Shown piece by piece: positions 637 through 59,290 of a DNA stretch of 64,000 bases. The stretch comes from Anaerolineae bacterium (lineage in GTDB: Bacteria; Chloroflexota; Anaerolineae; J102). The translations under genes and the position numbers were made by a program. Location of the stretch: positions 4,624 to 68,623 of the forward strand of contig JALWZT010000109.1 in NCBI GenBank assembly GCA_027002405.1, written 5' to 3'. Each line of letters starts with the position of its first letter. Within the stretch, counting starts at the first letter, position 1. The notes under the pieces were generated by a model, which made no database searches, was not told the origin of the DNA, and worked only from the letters and a program-made list of their open reading frames with translations.

Positions 637-956
637 TGGCGACTGCTATGTAAATAGAGTAATCAGTGATCAGTTATCAGTAATCAGTAGAGCCCCGCGA
701 CGTCATTCCGAGGGAGCGAAGCGACCGAGGCATGTCCTGAGCCTGTCCTGAACGAAGTGAAGGACCTCGCCGAAGGAAATCTAGCGAAGCGCAAAAAACC
801 ACGGCATGACGCTCGCTTCGCTCGCTAGATGCTTCGCTCCCTCCGGTCGCTCAGCATGACGAACATCTGCGGAAATCAGCGTTCCCTCCACCTGCCCCAC
901 GTCTATTTTGAACTACACCGTTCATCTCCTCTCATTCATTCCCTCCGACAACAACG
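637..956. repeat. composite intergenic repeat: (TGATTACTGATCAC)n block plus ~200-bp palindromic element with long TIRs (CGTCATTCCGAGGGAGCGAAGCGACCGAGG ... CCTCCGGTCGCTCAGCATGACG)
   Basis: same element in opposite orientation at ~28010-28180 and ~48150-48330. Confidence 0.7.
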
Positions 957-2090
957 ATGCTTTCAATACGCCCTCTGAATCCACGCAATCCTCATGATGT
1001 ACGAGCCTGGATCGAGCTGCCCTATCGCCTTTACCAAAATGAGCCCTTGTGGGTCCCTCAACTGGCGAAAGATGCCCGCTTCCAGCTCGATCGCGAGAAA
1101 AACCCCTTTTACATCTATGGTCACGCGGATTTCTTCCTCGCCGAGCGTCATGGCATTCCGGTGGGCCGCATTGCCGTGCTGGAAAACCGTCGGCTCAATC
1201 AATGGCGATCTGAGCGTACCGCGTTTTTCTATCTCTTTGAGGCGGAGGAATCCTTTGATGTGGCTGAAGCTCTCTTCGAAACGGCGTTCCGGTGGGCGCA
1301 ACGCCGGGGGCTGAACCGCATCATCGGGCCCAAAGGGTTCCTTACCATCGACTCCGTAGGGATGTTGGCCCAGGGTTTTGAGCGCTTCCCAGCCATGGGC
1401 ATGGCCTGGAACTATCCCTATTACAATGAGTTTATGGAGCGCCTGGGGTTTGAAAAAGAGACCGATTACCTATCGGGCTGGATTCCCATTGACTTTCCGG
1501 TCCCGCAAAAGGTGTTTCGCATTGCCGAACTGGCTAAACAGCGCTACGGCTATCGAACAGTGAGATACCAGAGCAAAAAGGAACTCATCCCCATTGTGCA
1601 CCATGTGATTGAGACGTATAATCGTTCGTTTACCCAAAATTGGGAGTTTGCCCCCATTTCCGATTCAGAAGCCCCAGTGCTGGCCCACAAAATCCTCAGC
1701 GTGATCGATGATCCCACCCTGCCGCAGGTGGTCTGGAAAGAGGATGTGGCCGTGGGGTTTATCCTGGCTTATCCCGACATCAACCGGGCCATTCAGCGCA
1801 CCCGGGGCCGACTATGGCCCTTGGGCTGGTGGCATTTGATTCGAGAGTTCAAACGCACCAAATGGATTGATCTCAACGGAGTGGGGGTGCTGCCCGAACA
1901 TCGCGGGCGAGGGGTGGACGCGATCATGATGGCCGAGTTGTGGAACGCGGTGACCCATTCGGAGCGAGGTTATCAATTCGCCGAGATCTGTCAGATTAAC
2001 GAAAAAAATCAGGTCATGCAACAGGAAATGGCCGCGTTTGGGATCACGTTCGACAAGCGGCATCGCATCTATCGGCGAGCGTTGCCTTGA
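957..2090 (+). CDS. GNAT family N-acetyltransferase (long, ~377 aa form)
   Basis: C-terminal acetyl-CoA motif VGVLPEHRGRGVDAIMMAELWN; ORF track. Confidence 0.55.
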   Translation: MLSIRPLNPRNPHDVRAWIELPYRLYQNEPLWVPQLAKDARFQLDREKNPFYIYGHADFFLAERHGIPVGRIAVLENRRLNQWRSERTAFFYLFEAEESFDVAEALFETAFRWAQRRGLNRIIGPKGFLTIDSVGMLAQGFERFPAMGMAWNYPYYNEFMERLGFEKETDYLSGWIPIDFPVPQKVFRIAELAKQRYGYRTVRYQSKKELIPIVHHVIETYNRSFTQNWEFAPISDSEAPVLAHKILSVIDDPTLPQVVWKEDVAVGFILAYPDINRAIQRTRGRLWPLGWWHLIREFKRTKWIDLNGVGVLPEHRGRGVDAIMMAELWNAVTHSERGYQFAEICQINEKNQVMQQEMAAFGITFDKRHRIYRRALP

Positions 2091-2093
2091 TGA

Positions 2094-3476
2094 TTATGCT
2101 ACCTCTATCTCCCTAGCCCGTGCGATCATCGCATCCCGCAGGGAGGCGAGCCGGGCGCTGATTTCAACGGGGTAAGGAGCGGGCTGGGAGACCTCCAAGG
2201 CTTTGAGAGGTTCAGGAAGCGCGGCCAATTGGGCCGCGGCCCGCTCCCGGATGGCTTGCAGCGAGGGAAGTTCAGCCACCAGGGCGCCATCCCGGATGAT
2301 TTCCTTGAGGAGGGGTTCTCCTCCCGGGGGCGCGGGCTCATCATGCATGCGAATCTCATCCCGGACCATGATGCCATCTCGATAAAAACGATAGATTTGT
2401 TTGCGCCCGGGCAGGGAGACTTTACCCGTACTGAGCTTGACCTTCAGGCCCGCTTCGTCTTCCACCAGTTTGTATACGCCGTTGACAAAGGGTGCGTCGG
2501 CCGACGTGCCCATCTGCGTGCCCACCCCAAAAGCATCGGCTGCCGCGCCCGCGGCCAACAAATCCCGAATCCGGTATTCATTCAGGTCGCCACTGAGGAA
2601 GATAAGGACATGGGGGAACCCGGCTTCATCGAACATACGCCGCACTTGTTGGCTGAGCGTGACCAAGTCCCCGCTATCAATGCGCACCCCGCGCAGTTCG
2701 TGGCCGCGCGCCCGCATCTCGCGGGCCACGGTGATCGCGTGCCGGGCGCCTTGCAGGGTGTCGTAGGTGTCGATCAGAAGCACCGCATTGTGAGGATAGT
2801 CGGCCGCGTACGCACGAAAAGCATCCAGCTCCGTGGGGAAGGACATCACATAGGAATGAGCCATGGTGCCTGTAATGGGGATGTGGTACAAATGCCCGGC
2901 CAGGACGTTGGAAGTAGCCACGCAGCCCGCGATGTAGGACGCCCGAGCCACCTTCATGGCCGCGTCCGTGCCATGGTCTCGTCGGGGAGAAAAATCCGCG
3001 ACCCCTCGCCCCTGGGCTGCCAACACCACCCGGGCCGCCTTGGTCCCATACATCACGTTGGCGTTCAGGGTGTTGAGCAGAAAAGTTTCGGCTATTTGGG
3101 CTTCGATGCGGGGGGCGGTGACCCGCAGAACCGGCTCCATGGGGAAAAAGACCGTGCCTTCGGGCATGGCCCACACATGGCCATGGAAGCGAAAATCGCG
3201 CAGATACGCGAGAAAATCCTCGCTGAAGACCTTTTGTTGCCGCAGATAGTGGATCGCGTCCTCATTAAAGCGCATGTTCAACAGATAATGAACTGCCTGC
3301 TCGAGTCCCACATGGAGCAAAAAGGCGCGATGAGGAGGCAATTTGCGCACGAAAAGATCAAAGGTGGCCCACTGATTCAACCCATGGCGGAGGTAAGAAT
3401 CGGCCATGGTGAGTTCATACATATCGGTGAAGAGGGCCATGTTGGCCGAAGAAACCCAACCGAAAGTGGCGTTCAT
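2094..3476 (-). CDS. pncB: nicotinate phosphoribosyltransferase
   Basis: N-terminal LFTDMYELTMADSYL signature, full-length NAPRTase-like ORF; start chosen at MNATFG (alternatives 3497 or 3440) rather than the tool's 3566. Confidence 0.85.
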   Translation of the reverse strand: MNATFGWVSSANMALFTDMYELTMADSYLRHGLNQWATFDLFVRKLPPHRAFLLHVGLEQAVHYLLNMRFNEDAIHYLRQQKVFSEDFLAYLRDFRFHGHVWAMPEGTVFFPMEPVLRVTAPRIEAQIAETFLLNTLNANVMYGTKAARVVLAAQGRGVADFSPRRDHGTDAAMKVARASYIAGCVATSNVLAGHLYHIPITGTMAHSYVMSFPTELDAFRAYAADYPHNAVLLIDTYDTLQGARHAITVAREMRARGHELRGVRIDSGDLVTLSQQVRRMFDEAGFPHVLIFLSGDLNEYRIRDLLAAGAAADAFGVGTQMGTSADAPFVNGVYKLVEDEAGLKVKLSTGKVSLPGRKQIYRFYRDGIMVRDEIRMHDEPAPPGGEPLLKEIIRDGALVAELPSLQAIRERAAAQLAALPEPLKALEVSQPAPYPVEISARLASLRDAMIARAREIEVA

Positions 3477-3575
3477 ATGGGCGTCTCTCGCGTGCATGAT
3501 GGGGCGGAGGGCATGGTTAGATAGTCGATATTGGGTATTGGATATCGGATAACGTATTGTAAGCACCGAAGGGGA

Positions 3576-58218: not shown

Positions 58219-58269
58219 AAAATTTTGGTTCTACTGAAAAGGTTCTCCCACCATAAAGGTCATGAAGAA

Positions 58270-58440
58270 CACAAAATAACGCCGAAAATAGAACGCTGAT
58301 TTGCGCCGATGCTTCGCAGCGCAGATCTTCGTTTGATTTCTCCTCTTTTTCTGTGAAAATCAGTGATAATCTGTGGATGGAATAAAAAACGCCAGTGTCC
58401 AGTTTGATCTTTTCTGCATAAATCAACTTTCACCAGCGTT
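58270..58440. repeat. GCAGAT-family repeat block
   Basis: CGCTGATTTGCGCCGATGCTTCGCAGCGCAGATCTTCG... Confidence 0.55.
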
Positions 58441-59080
58441 TATCTGCATCCTCTATATCCATCCCTCGCGCCGTGCCATACGCCAGCAAAGCTTCGAGGC
58501 CGTTGTAAGTGTATGTTAGCCGCTCGATCTCCAGTTCCTGCCCCACGGCTAAAAGGGCTCGCAAGTGGGCTTCTCGACGCATAAATCGGCCGCGATCCAG
58601 GCGGCGTTGCATATAGGCAAGAGGGCGGCGCCAAGCGGGCTCAGGAAGCACCGCGTCAAAAATCACCACCAATCCCCCAGGTCGACACACTCGCCACATC
58701 TCCCGAACTGCATGATGTACCAACTCGTCGGGCATATGATGAAAAACGCCAACACTCCACACCGCATCGAAAACCCCTTTGGGAAAAGGCAGGGCATCGG
58801 ATGAGCCGACCACGGCCGGTTCGCCCTTAGCTGCGTAAGCCCAGGCGTAGTTGAGGGAGTAATCCAACCCAATCGGATGCACGCCCAACGGCCACAAGCG
58901 TGAGGATGGCCCGCACCCCACATCGAGAATGCGCGGATTCTCCGGCAAACGCGTGAGCAATGCGTTAAAACGCCGGAACAGCGTTTGATCGGCTCCCGGC
59001 GCCAGAATCAGCCGTTGCAGCCGATAGAGCCAGGGCTGTTCCAGAATACGATACATGCCGTGAGCGTGTGGCTCTTCCAT
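58430..59080 (-). CDS. class I SAM-dependent methyltransferase
   Basis: ILDVGCGPSS motif I; start moved to MEEPHAHGMYRIL because the ORF's 5' extension lies in a repeat. Confidence 0.7.
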   Translation of the reverse strand: MEEPHAHGMYRILEQPWLYRLQRLILAPGADQTLFRRFNALLTRLPENPRILDVGCGPSSRLWPLGVHPIGLDYSLNYAWAYAAKGEPAVVGSSDALPFPKGVFDAVWSVGVFHHMPDELVHHAVREMWRVCRPGGLVVIFDAVLPEPAWRRPLAYMQRRLDRGRFMRREAHLRALLAVGQELEIERLTYTYNGLEALLAYGTARGMDIEDADKRW

Positions 59081-59099
59081 GAGCCGGCGAGTTGTCAAG

Positions 59100-59290
59100 A
59101 CAAACAACGCCGATCTACAAAGCAGGCGACACGAGCGGCGGTTCGCCGATACGAATGAAAACGCCTCGCAGCCAGGCTGGCGGACCGTGAAACGTGAGGC
59201 GTGATGCGTAAGATACTCACGTTTCACGTTTCACGCATCACGCCCGTTGCCGCCTCGCCCAACGTCGGCCTGGCGATTCCTCAGCAACCA
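59100..59290. repeat. GTGAAACGTGAGGCGTGATGCGTAAGATACTCACGTTTCACGTTTCACGCATCACGCC palindromic repeat module
   Basis: near-identical to ~28290-28380. Confidence 0.65.

What the first reader, a model, noticed from the sequence alone, without database searches (positions are those of the whole stretch)
637..59290. Intergenic space is a mosaic of at least seven short repeat families
Recurring modules appear at multiple sites. They are (GGATTAG)n, (TGATTACTGATCAC)n, GGATTGAGGATCGTCAGGACAACGTTGAGCGAG, GTGAAACGTGATGCGTAA palindromes, CACGGAGACACGGAGG palindromes, CACGAAGGCAC...CCCCGCACGCGGGGGAG, (T)TGCGCAGAT tandem units, and a ~200-bp element with 30-bp TIRs (CGTCATGCTGAGCGACCGGAGGGAGCGAAGC). Sites include 637-956, 9110-9300, 10385-10455, 17480-17600, 19310-19440, 21700-22020, 27960-28400, 35080-35230, 48060-48330, 53490-53620, 58270-58440 and 59100-59290. 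They occur in different combinations and orientations, often extending ORF-caller predictions. Such modular, shuffling repeats resemble cyanobacterial STRR/HIP or REP/BIME systems. They may mark a dedicated but uncharacterised mobilisation mechanism, for example a REP-associated tyrosine transposase.
Basis: seen in the sequence. Interest (0 to 1): 0.55.

Follow-up and report, generated by a model that had tools for sequence, protein, structure and literature searches.

The report
Nested hairpin-repeat cassettes between genes
Most gaps between genes in this stretch of a Caldilineae-like (Chloroflexota) chromosome hold arrays of small non-coding hairpin repeats joined by fixed linker motifs; this resembles the REP/BIME and Neisseria mosaic repeats but uses a junction grammar I could not find described.

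Summary
Every listed module recurs far above chance, almost only between genes: 17 of 25 gaps of at least 60 nt carry repeats, covering 58% of intergenic bases.

- (GGATTAG)n is a hexamer, (GGATTA)n.
- The "~200-bp TIR element" is 113-161 nt with about 75% matching ends.
- The modules are not free. They sit in fixed composites.

The host is not a cyanobacterium (no HIP1 site). It is a Caldilineae-like Chloroflexota.

Composites are cassettes. Each has a left motif ..GATGAAAAT, a variable cargo, and a right motif CTATTT(T/A)C..A.CAG. Neighbouring cassettes are joined by a small GC hairpin with compensatory stem changes. Cargo is one of three things: a long "zipper" hairpin whose arms are tandem 6-9-mers, a CGTC-tagged REP-like inverted doublet, or a one-sided tandem array.

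In relatives the same operon junctions are empty (24 nt), hold one cassette, or hold five head-to-tail cassettes. No transposase was found in the window, and none appeared among the strong Pfam matches beside copies in related loci.

Best reading: non-autonomous, BIME/NIME-like cassette arrays that grow at a conserved junction. The enzyme is unknown. A RAYT is neither shown nor excluded.

The doublet's end recurs in at least 8 phyla, and the CACGAAGG zipper in about 27 virus-collection sites.

This is a new variant of a known kind and moderately interesting.

The parts
643..883 (-). Composite cassette, reverse orientation. Right motif CTATTTACATAGCAG at 643-657; (AGTAATC)n heptamers at 657-689; CGTC-tagged inverted doublet at 701-861; GCAGAT-unit remnant at 862-883.
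   Evidence: I2-I4; A1
6212..6414 (.). MITE-like element of about 200 nt with 29-nt terminal inverted repeats. Its interior is a series of small hairpins.
   Evidence: I21; several matches in L010, and matches in L023, L029, L033
9096..9315 (-). Cassette between the permease-2 and ATPase genes. Right motif at 9105-9119; (TAGGAT)n at 9117-9165; 33-mer at 9155-9187; CGTAATG-unit arm at 9229-9254. The degenerate left motif GATGAATCC lies about 35-45 nt below the 9315 end of the gap (read from the gap sequence).
10385..10457 (+). One-sided tandem arrays between the two permease genes: (GGATTA)5.5 followed by (ACTGATN)n heptamers.
17483..17624 (+). Complete 'zipper' hairpin with CACGGAGA/CACAGAGA units and a T-rich loop, plus a 30-nt flank shared with the copy at 19300.
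   Evidence: I1; I2; DNA fold -28.5 kcal/mol, z -6.2
19300..19434 (-). Inverted, half-length copy of the CACGGAGA zipper. It is joined to a linker hairpin and the left motif GATACGGATGAAAAA (19401-19415).
   Evidence: (I1)
21697..21866 (-). Cassette. Left motif at 21852-21866; CGTGATG/CGTGAAA zipper at 21773-21827; 33-mer at 21729-21761; (GGATTA)n at 21709-21739; right motif at 21697-21711, 1 nt before the start codon of the next gene.
   Evidence: (A2)
21867..22376 (-). Linker hairpin (GGACGACTGTCC, 21867-21888) and a second, larger cassette. Right motif at 21889-21903; half CACGAAGG zipper with CCCCGCACGCGGGG hairpin at 21906-21965; heptamers at 21970-22000; module GGGGCTAGCCGG.. at 22003-22055; further repeats up to the left motif at 22362-22376.
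27948..28418 (+). Two joined composites. (GCAGGTG)n at 27948-27969; GCAGAT units at 27974-28016; CGTC doublet at 28017-28129; heptamers at 28148-28179; TAATCC units at 28205-28224; right-like motif, linker and left motif at 28229-28280; CGTGAAA/CGTGATG zipper at 28304-28360.
35085..35212 (+). Complete zipper hairpin. The arms pair CACGAAGG with CACTAAGG units. It has an inner CTCCCCC..GGGGGAG hairpin and the loop TTCTTTATTTTTCC.
   Evidence: I15; z -4.7
48086..48345 (+). Complete cassette. Left motif at 48086-48100; GCAGAT units at 48103-48150; CGTC doublet at 48151-48287; heptamers at 48299-48330; right motif at 48331-48345, which overlaps the end of ORF 48331-49458.
51577..51771 (+). Zipper hairpin with 8-mer units (GACAAGGT/GAGGGGGT ... 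CTCCTTGT). Further copies lie at 52737-52931 and 55437-55501, between toxin-antitoxin cassettes.
   Evidence: (D3, D6, I24, I25)
53462..53629 (+). Complete simple cassette. Linker hairpin GCAGGCAGGCCTGC; left motif at 53491-53505; (GCGCAGAT)n - T-rich loop - (ATCTGC)n zipper; right motif at 53615-53629.
   Evidence: (z -3.4)
58270..58460 (+). Diverged GCGCAGAT/GCGCTGAT-unit element.
   Evidence: D8, D17
59110..59314 (+). Cassette. Degenerate right motif, linker and left motif at 59110-59162; CGTGAAA/CGTGATG zipper at 59186-59242; right motif at 59300-59314, inside the last codons of ORF 59295-60521.

Best explanation
The intergenic gaps hold arrays of small, non-coding, hairpin-forming cassettes that are non-autonomous mobile or recombining DNA. 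Their organisation is like the BIMEs of E. coli and the NIMEs of Neisseria.

One cassette reads, from left to right:
- a left motif ..GATAC(G/C)GATGAAAAT(AG);
- a variable cargo;
- a right motif CTATTT(T/A)C..A(A/G)CAG.
The cores ATGAAAATAG and CTATTTTCAT are inverted repeats of each other.

Cargo is one of three things:
- a long 'zipper' hairpin whose two arms are tandem 6-9-nt units (CACGGAGA, CACGAAGG, GCGCAGAT, CGTGATG/CGTGAAA, GACAAGGT) around an A/T-rich loop;
- an inverted doublet of CGTC-tagged REP-like stem-loops;
- a one-sided tandem array, (GGATTA)n or (ACTGATN)n.

Successive cassettes are joined by a small GC-rich hairpin whose stem sequence varies while pairing is kept.

New cassettes are added immediately after an existing right motif. 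Arrays therefore grow head to tail between a stop codon and the next ribosome-binding site. Elements also insert into one another.

Shown here: the grammar, the hairpins, the compensatory changes, recurrence elsewhere, empty and filled orthologous sites, array growth at the junction, and no transposase gene found beside the copies examined.

Inferred: the acting enzyme is encoded elsewhere. My best guess is a single-strand, hairpin-recognising HUH/Y1-type or site-specific recombinase.

Also inferred: complementarity of the arms is kept because the element acts as a folded single strand, and the cassettes are co-transcribed.
For: 1. Grammar. The right motif occurs 7 times and the left motif 7 times in 64 kb, against 0.07 and 0.05 in simulations. 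The motifs fall on composite boundaries.

2. Lineage. Both motifs recur in close relatives (L022, L035, L099) and other Anaerolineae MAG loci. They are absent from 118 kb of other phyla (1 right motif, 0 left), 421 kb of viral loci and 386 kb of distant-relative operons.

3. Linker. Eleven linkers carry ten different perfect 4-6 bp stems. The summed stem length is 57, against 34.5 +/- 3.0 in 2000 shuffles.

4. Hairpins. The zipper elements and the CGTC doublet fold with z-scores of -3.0 to -6.2. Relatives carry the same architectures with other units, each self-complementary.

5. CGTC doublet.
- The 5 nt after GTC have their reverse complement 11-25 nt downstream at 18 left ends.
- This was scored over the 23 elements in which a GTCA(T/C) left end was detected.
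- Five different stems are used: ATTCC, ATTGC, ATTCT, ATCCC, ATGCT.

6. Orthologous sites, permease-2/ATPase gap.
- It is 24 nt in the 88% relatives.
- It holds one cassette in the window and in the 96% relatives.
- It is 829 nt with five head-to-tail cassettes in the 92% relative L099.
- In L099 the four extra cassettes lie between ..CAG and GAGTT(C/G)CCCATG.

7. Orthologous sites, other gaps.
- Relatives at 66-76% have gaps of -4 to 80 nt.
- One junction in the permease-1/2 gap holds (CCTAAT)4, GCTTTT or a 170-nt composite in three lineages.
- The guaA flanks are empty, or hold a CACGGATA zipper, a CACGGAGA zipper or a heptamer array.

8. Nesting. L022 lacks the heptamer block, where the window has GGCTCT[heptamers]CTCTATTTAC. 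L028 has the doublet as sole cargo. In L022 a whole cassette sits in the loop of a (GCGGAT)n zipper.

9. No transposase. None was found among the window ORFs scanned. None appeared among the strong Pfam hits of 70 ORFs beside copies in related loci.
Against: - No enzyme, no autonomous copy and no target-site duplication were found.
- The junction motif is repeated on both sides of every insertion. The crossover point cannot be fixed, and homologous recombination or template switching between arrays would give the same products.
- Sampling is one 64-kb window plus roughly 150 kb of related loci, not a genome census.
- The Pfam survey of related loci showed only the 25 top families of 86, so a weakly scoring transposase could have been missed.
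- Cassettes lie in both orientations relative to transcription, so no strand-specific RNA role is indicated.
- Taxon names come from MAG bins, and at least one (L022, 'Calditrichia') looks misbinned.
Confidence: 0.6

Rival explanations
1. The repeats are REPINs in the strict sense: REP doublets mobilised by a REP-associated tyrosine transposase (RAYT) encoded once elsewhere in the genome.
For: - The TIR element is an inverted doublet of tagged stem-loops with compensatory stem changes.
- Cassettes insert directly 3' of a fixed short sequence, without duplications, and form head-to-tail arrays. That is how IS200/IS605-type single-strand elements behave (background in PMC6006769).
- Cassettes left of 22.4 kb are all on the - strand and those right of 28.2 kb all on the + strand, while the genes stay on -.
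Against: - The tag is CGTC, not the GTAG that RAYTs use. CGTC REPs are reported to lack an associated transposase (PMC3733652).
- No Y1/HUH gene was found in the window or among the strong hits next to copies.
- The linker hairpin has no GTAG.
- The orientation split rests on 9 elements (P about 0.04).
Confidence: 0.15
2. No dedicated mobility exists. The arrays arise and change in place by replication slippage, template switching across hairpins, and homologous recombination or gene conversion between the conserved linker motifs of different loci.
For: - Tandem units change in number and sequence between 96%-identical relatives at one site.
- Every gain maps to a repeated 15-16-nt junction that could serve as portable homology.
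- NIME arrays of Neisseria are thought to behave this way (PMC1797815).
Against: - Identical complex modules lie at non-homologous loci, and an ancestral operon junction is empty. The first copy at a site therefore needs insertion into repeat-free DNA.
- The same doublet end occurs in at least 8 phyla.
- The same CACGAAGG zipper with its TCA prefix occurs at about 27 sites in virus-collection contigs. Local origin cannot explain either.
Confidence: 0.2
3. The elements exist mainly because they are selected cis-acting signals: transcription terminators, mRNA-stabilising hairpins or protein-binding arrays inside operons.
For: - They lie in co-directional and convergent gaps. Two of the divergent (promoter) gaps, 13925-14114 and 46846-47132, carry no repeats. 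This matches REPs in other bacteria (PMC3733652).
- The right motif abuts the ribosome-binding site or start codon of the next gene.
- Pairing is preserved while sequence varies.
Against: - There is no excess of sigma-70-like promoters or intrinsic terminators (10 vs 13.3 and 21 vs 23.3 expected). Only two terminator-like sites fall in repeats.
- There is no Rfam match in the window.
- The same operon works with 24-nt, 220-nt or 829-nt gaps in near relatives.
- Composites occur in both orientations relative to transcription.
Confidence: 0.1
4. The mosaic is an assembly or binning artefact in which repeats collapsed or were joined wrongly.
For: Short-read contigs L001 and L002 end inside the 637-956 repeat.
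Against: - Two independent assemblies are 100% identical to the window across the sites at 9.1 and 10.4 kb.
- Four further assemblies of the 96% relative agree with each other base for base in the three gaps compared.
Confidence: 0.01

Closest known systems
Neisserial intergenic mosaic elements (NIMEs: dRS3 repeats flanking RS elements; PMC1797815)
   Same: - A constant short inverted-repeat unit alternates with many families of variable 50-150-nt elements.
- Arrays sit at syntenic intergenic sites and differ in unit number between close relatives.
- Other repeats insert into them.
- dRS3 (ATTCCC-N8-GGGAAT) is classed as a CGTC-1 REP (PMC3733652). It has the same form as the ends of the doublet here, CGTC-ATTCC-loop-GGAAT.
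   Different: - The constant unit is different: CTATTTTCA.AGCAG + GC hairpin + GATACGGATGAAAAT.
- The cargo is long hairpins with tandem-unit arms.
- The host phylum is Chloroflexota.
- NIMEs were stated not to occur outside Neisseria.
- No phage recombinase link is seen here.
CGTC-tagged REPs (Di Nocera et al. 2013, PMC3733652)
   Same: - A CGTC tag is followed by a stem that starts with AT.
- Copies are paired in inverted orientation.
- They lie between co-directional or convergent genes.
- They occur in several phyla.
- No transposase is associated.
- They are sometimes embedded in larger palindromes.
   Different: - The stem here is 5 bp with an 11-25-nt loop, often GAGCGAAGCGA, instead of 8-9 bp with 4-5 nt.
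- The tail is CTA or CCA.
- The phyla found here go well beyond the five listed: Firmicutes, CPR, Acidobacteriota, Chloroflexota, Planctomycetota and others.
REP/BIME and REPINs with RAYTs (PMC3116915, PMC6006769)
   Same: - Palindromic units combine with fixed extra-palindromic motifs into mosaics.
- Inverted doublets form hairpins.
- They are non-autonomous, with pairing kept by compensatory change.
   Different: - There is no GTAG tag and no RAYT found.
- The units here are much longer, and their arms are built of tandem oligomers.
Cyanobacterial STRR heptamer arrays and small dispersed repeats (Elhai et al. 2008, known to me and cited in PMC5861425 and PMC3116915; the paper itself could not be read)
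   Same: - Tandem heptamers of the form NNNCAGT lie between genes.
- Very small repeats nest inside one another.
   Different: - The host is not a cyanobacterium and HIP1 is absent.
- The arrays here are parts of larger bounded cassettes.
IS200/IS605-derived palindrome-associated elements and integron attC sites (my own knowledge; background in PMC6006769)
   Same: - Insertion is next to a fixed short sequence, without duplication.
- Hairpins are recognised as folded single strands.
- Arrays are head to tail.
- The right motif + hairpin + left motif has the attC layout: conserved inverted cores around a variable stem.
   Different: - No TnpA, TnpB or integrase was seen.
- The cassettes carry no genes.
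- There is no sequence similarity to known ends or attC cores.

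Membership tests
REPIN / RAYT system | REP stem-loop preceded by the tetranucleotide GTAG | tested here: not met
   The doublet ends start with CGTC. The linker hairpins are flanked by CAG.. and ..GCCGATAC.
REPIN / RAYT system | Two REPs in inverted orientation forming one hairpin | tested here: met
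   701-861, 28017-28129 and 48151-48287 each have two tagged units facing inwards. DNA folds give z about -3.
REPIN / RAYT system | A RAYT (Y1/HUH) gene in the genome, flanked by the same REPs | not testable with these tools
   None was found in the 64-kb window or among the strong hits of 70 neighbouring ORFs in relatives. The whole genome is not available.
CGTC-tagged REP super-family | Unpaired CGTC at one end, with the stem starting AT | tested here: met
   CGTC-AT.. is present at both ends of all window copies and at most copies in other phyla.
CGTC-tagged REP super-family | Stem of 8-9 bp, loop of 4-5 nt, CCA tail | tested here: not met
   The stem is 5 bp with its complement 11-25 nt downstream. 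The tail is CTA in most copies and CCA in some.
MITE | Terminal inverted repeats, small size, no coding capacity | tested here: met
   The cassette cores ATGAAAATAG/CTATTTTCAT are 10 nt. The doublet has 33-nt imperfect ends. Element 6212-6414 has 29-nt ends. All are 110-490 nt.
MITE | Target-site duplication, and a parent insertion sequence with the same ends | tested here: inconclusive
   No consistent duplication was seen. The only candidate is CTCT beside the heptamer block. No parent element was found in the loci examined.
Cyanobacterial STRR / HIP1 | Cyanobacterial host with hyper-abundant GCGATCGC | tested here: not met
   GCGATCGC occurs 0 times in 64 kb. Homologues are named Caldilineae or Chloroflexi.
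Cyanobacterial STRR / HIP1 | Tandem heptanucleotide arrays between genes | tested here: met
   (ACTGATN)n is present at 5 sites.
NIME / BIME-type mosaic | Constant short palindromic unit alternating with variable elements, in arrays that vary between relatives | tested here: met
   Right motif-hairpin-left motif linkers lie between different cargos. The same junction holds 0, 1 or 5 cassettes.
NIME / BIME-type mosaic | Sequence identity to dRS3 or to the E. coli palindromic units | tested here: not met
   The linker and cargo sequences are unrelated. Only the ATTCC..GGAAT form of the doublet ends resembles dRS3 (PMC1797815).
Known RNA families / intrinsic terminators | Match to an Rfam model, or a GC hairpin followed by a T run | tested here: not met
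   There was no Rfam hit at the gathering threshold, and only a chance MIR1507 match at E<1. Terminator-like sites number 21, against 23.3 expected.

The most novel reading that the evidence does not exclude
The left motif-cargo-right motif-hairpin units would be cassettes of an undescribed single-strand recombination or transposition system, attC-like or IS200-like in logic. The system would assemble head-to-tail arrays of non-coding hairpins at operon junctions in one Chloroflexota lineage. It would carry as cargo two much more widespread and also unnamed small elements. The first is 'zipper' hairpins whose arms are tandem octamers, (T)TCACCACGAAGG.., which also occur on virus-collection contigs. 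The second is a large-loop branch of CGTC-tagged REP doublets shared by at least eight phyla.
Probability: 0.3. Interest if true: 0.7.

Novelty: new variant of a known kind. Interest (0 to 1): 0.5.

Why it matters
- Small non-autonomous repeats are well studied in Proteobacteria, Neisseria and cyanobacteria, and hardly at all in Chloroflexota.
- The fixed junction grammar here makes cassette boundaries readable. Gain and loss can therefore be scored directly: 0, 1 or 5 cassettes at one operon junction in relatives whose permease proteins are 88-96% identical to the window's.
- That gives a tractable system for a long-open question: what moves CGTC-type REPs, for which no enzyme is known.
- The repeats also break short-read assemblies and extend ORF calls. 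Recognising them improves MAG assembly and annotation in this group.

Tried and rejected
- **Rfam.** There was no match in the window at the gathering threshold or at E<1. One Acido-Lenti-1 match lies in a related 1.5-kb contig only.
- **Literature search by sequence string.** It returned only unrelated primers for the doublet end, and nothing for the zipper units.
- **Transposase search.** Pfam or NCBIfam scans of the window ORFs of 80 aa or more that I selected, and of 70 ORFs in related loci, found none.
- **Plasmids and viruses.** The doublet is absent from PLSDB and IMG/VR.
- **Junction motifs in IMG/VR.** The 15-mer and 17-mer matches are at chance level and lack the linker context.
- **A specific link between CGTC stem-loops and CACGAAGG zippers in viral loci.**
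  - With a strict 7-bp stem there is no enrichment, 3 observed vs about 2 expected.
  - With 5 bp the excess is weak, 20 vs 11.4, P 0.013, and control tags show none.
  - I treat this as suggestive only.
- **Terminator or promoter role.** No excess was found.
- **Formal pair counting on the MAFFT alignment of linkers.** I dropped it because stems fell in two registers, and used a shuffle test instead.
- **Elhai et al. 2008.** The paper could not be read.

Full report
**Observation**

The listed repeats are present at the listed sites. TRF, the repeat finder and a self-BLAST recover them independently. Against 100 Markov-1 simulations of the window, every long module is far above chance. Examples are (GGATTA)3 at 4 vs 0, TGATTACTGATCAC at 10 vs 0.25, GTGAAACGTGATGCGTAA at 6 vs 0.02, and the 31-nt element end at 3 vs 0.

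Repeats cover 4336 of 7454 intergenic bases and occupy 17 of 25 gaps of at least 60 nt. Two divergent-promoter gaps (13925-14114, 46846-47132) are free of them.

Two independent assemblies (L001, L002) are 100% identical to the window over 817-12090 and 854-3792, and both break inside the first repeat site. The repeats are therefore not an assembly artefact.

- The "(GGATTAG)n" repeat has period 6.
- The 9-mer TGCGCAGAT alone is not significant.
- The "~200-bp" element is 161, 113 and 137 nt, with ends about 75% alike.
- Several families were missed: 6212-6414, 22003-22376, 27948-27969, and the 8-mer hairpins at 51.6, 52.7 and 55.4 kb.

**Context**

The window encodes the following:
- the end of a ParB-like gene, plus NAPRTase and UbiD;
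- a Bmp-type ABC transporter operon;
- an NHL/PMT_2 protein and guaA;
- a long polysaccharide gene cluster;
- toxin-antitoxin cassettes.

No transposase is present. HIP1 (GCGATCGC) occurs 0 times. The nearest homologues are named Caldilineae, Caldilineales or Chloroflexi. The host is therefore a Caldilineae-like Chloroflexota, not a cyanobacterium.

**Anatomy**

The modules are not free.
- GCAGAT units, the TIR element and the ACTGATN heptamers occur together in one order at three sites (A1).
- GGATTA units, the 33-mer, the CGTGATG/CGTGAAA hairpin and the CCGTATCGG module form a second composite at four sites (A2).
- Whole blocks drop in or out between copies.

Two short motifs mark the composite boundaries.
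- The left motif is [GC]ATA[AC][CG]...GAAAA(T), typically GATACGGATGAAAAT.
- The right motif is CTATTT[TA]C..A.CAG.
- Each occurs 7 times, against 0.07 and 0.05 expected.
- Their cores ATGAAAATAG and CTATTTTCAT are inverted repeats.

These motifs delimit cassettes at 48086-48345, 53491-53629, 59148-59314 (+ strand) and 21866-21697, 22376-21889 (- strand).

Between neighbouring cassettes lies a small GC hairpin. Eleven linkers carry ten different perfect 4-6 bp stems. The summed stem length is 57, against 34.5 +/- 3.0 in 2000 shuffles.

Cargo is of three kinds.

1. Long "zipper" hairpins whose arms are tandem 6-9-nt units around an A/T-rich loop. Those at 17478-17600, 35085-35212, 53495-53625 and 28296-28365 fold with z -6.2, -4.7, -3.4 and -4.95.
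2. The TIR element, which is an inverted doublet. Each end is CGTC, then a 5-bp stem starting AT, then an 11-25-nt loop, then the complementary stem.
   - Among the 23 elements with a detectable GTCA(T/C) left end, 18 have the complement in place.
   - These elements are the three window copies and 20 loci from many phyla.
   - Five different stems are used: ATTCC, ATTGC, ATTCT, ATCCC, ATGCT.
3. One-sided tandem arrays, (GGATTA)n and (ACTGATN)n.

**Recurrence elsewhere**

- Window modules match non-orthologous loci of related Anaerolineae MAGs (L008, L018, L021, L022, L023, L028, L029, L033).
- Those loci carry the same architectures with other units, each self-complementary. Examples are CGTAATG, CGTCAAA, GCGGAT and GGTAGACC.
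- The left and right motifs are confined to this clade.
- The 20-mer at the doublet's right end has a much wider range.
  - The bins are labelled Firmicutes, Planctomycetota, Chloroflexota, CPR, Gammaproteobacteria, Deltaproteobacteria, Acidobacteriota and Calditrichia.
  - In each case it is the end of a 90-170-nt element of the same build.
- The 16-mer CCACGAAGGCACGAAG matched 60 sites in 51 IMG/VR contigs, where a 16-mer would give roughly 30 by chance.
  - 27 sites are preceded by CA (3.75 expected).
  - 27 carry a further unit and 22 an inverted unit.
  - One contig mixes CACGAAGG and CACGGAGA units, so these two families are one.

**Orthologous sites**

The transporter operon gives clean comparisons.

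- In relatives at 66-76% identity the permease-1/permease-2 and permease-2/ATPase gaps are -4 to 80 nt.
- The permease-2/ATPase gap takes these states:
  - 24 nt in the 88% relatives;
  - 220 nt (one cassette) in the window;
  - 208 nt (one cassette with a different right half) in the 96% relatives;
  - 829 nt in the 92% relative L099.
- The L099 gap is five head-to-tail cassettes. Each ends CTATTTTCA.AGCAG, and each of the first four is followed by a linker and GATACGGATGAAAAT.
- The four extra cassettes lie exactly between ..CAG and GAGTT(C/G)CCCATG.
- One junction in the permease-1/permease-2 gap holds (CCTAAT)4 in the window, GCTTTT in L035 and a 170-nt composite in L099.
- Around guaA the upstream gap is empty in one relative, holds a CACGGATA zipper in two, and a CACGGAGA zipper in the window. 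The downstream gap is 11 nt, 50 nt, a heptamer array, or a full zipper.
- Nesting is direct:
  - L022 has the cassette without heptamers, where the window reads GGCTCT[heptamers]CTCTATTTAC;
  - L028 has the doublet as the only cargo;
  - in L022 a whole cassette sits in the loop of a (GCGGAT)n zipper.

**Mechanism**

Shown:
- The cassettes are non-coding, hairpin-forming and bounded by fixed motifs.
- They are gained and lost as whole units at a conserved junction, between a stop codon and the next ribosome-binding site.
- They insert into each other.
- No transposase was found beside the copies examined.

Inferred:
- They are moved in trans.
- Insertion is directly 3' of a fixed sequence, without duplication.
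- Arrays are head to tail.
- Hairpins sit at the unit ends.
- Pairing is preserved despite sequence change.

These features fit a single-strand HUH/Y1-type or attC-like site-specific mechanism best. However, the junction is repeated on both sides of every gain. Homologous recombination or template switching between arrays cannot be excluded.

A suggestive detail is orientation. All cassettes left of 22.4 kb are on the - strand and all right of 28.2 kb on the + strand, while the genes stay on the - strand. The cumulative GC skew peaks at 22-28 kb. This rests on nine elements, P about 0.04.

A primary role as terminators, promoters or known RNAs is not supported.

**Comparison with known systems**

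- The closest in organisation are the NIMEs of Neisseria, in which constant dRS3 units flank more than 100 families of variable elements and arrays differ between strains (PMC1797815), and the BIMEs of E. coli.
- The doublet ends have the defining CGTC tag and AT-starting stem of the CGTC REP super-family. They fail its stem and loop dimensions, 5 bp and 11-25 nt instead of 8-9 bp and 4-5 nt (PMC3733652). I file them as a variant, not a member of the four described families.
- The heptamer arrays are STRR-like in form only.
- I found no description of the junction grammar or of hairpins with tandem-unit arms, either by sequence or by keyword.

**Verdict**

The feature is a new variant of a known kind, REP/BIME/NIME-like intergenic mosaics, in a phylum where this has not been described. 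It has a readable cassette grammar and two cargo families of much wider distribution. The enzyme and the genome-wide extent remain open.

Noticed in passing
window 17483-19434: guaA (17632-19191, - strand) is bracketed by inverted 120-nt copies of the CACGGAGA zipper element that are 89% complementary. Its neighbours differ from the LysM-peptidase / guaA / beta-lactamase-like order seen in three relative lineages. The gene may have been relocated together with, or by recombination between, these repeats.
   Followed up: partly
window 6212-6414: A MITE-like element of about 200 nt with 29-nt terminal inverted repeats (AATGATTTGGGTGCGTCCTATTTCGGTTG). Its interior is a series of small hairpins. 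It has several matches in L010 and others in L023, L029 and L033.
   Followed up: partly
window 50339-51780 and 53896-55489: A duplicated block (94-99% identical) inside the toxin-antitoxin region. It carries ORFs without family matches and zipper hairpins built of 8-mers (GACAAGGT/GAGGGGGT ... CTCCTTGT). A third hairpin copy lies at 52737-52931.
   Followed up: partly
window 11705-13924: The Bmp-type substrate-binding gene is an internal tandem duplication: 11708-12651 vs 12722-13666, 87% identical, with two Bmp domains in one 739-aa ORF.
   Followed up: no
window 643-22376 versus 28266-59314: All nine left/right-motif-bounded elements left of 22.4 kb lie on the - strand and all those right of 28.2 kb on the + strand. 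Gene orientation does not change, and the cumulative GC skew peaks at 22-28 kb. Orientation may follow replication direction (P about 0.04).
   Followed up: partly
window 48331-48345, 53615-53629, 59300-59314: The right motif lies within the last codons or stop of three - strand ORFs (48331-49458, 53621-54034, 59295-60521). Its reverse complement CTGCTATGAAAATAG contains TGA and TAG. The element may therefore supply or replace the gene's end.
   Followed up: no
window 22003-22055; L022 83-132, 244-292 and 126-171: The module GGGGCTAGCCGGAAT.ATCCGGCGCCG.. recurs in L022. Next to it in L022 a 46-nt stretch reaches the Rfam gathering score of Acido-Lenti-1 (38.1 vs 37 bits). The window copy does not.
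   Followed up: partly
L022 (JALWDQ010000192.1, 1544 nt): This contig is binned as 'Calditrichia'. It is almost entirely made of the window's repeat modules, at up to 96% identity. It is probably a misbinned Caldilineae-like fragment.
   Followed up: no
L007, L014, L018, L021, L035 8330-8620: In the related MAG GCA_026991225.1 the CGTC doublet, or in L035 a different GC-hairpin cluster, often sits inside another MITE-like element. That element has the ends TTCGACAATGTCA(A/C)ATT ... AATGTGACATTGTCAAG. This is a further layer of nesting not seen in the window.
   Followed up: no
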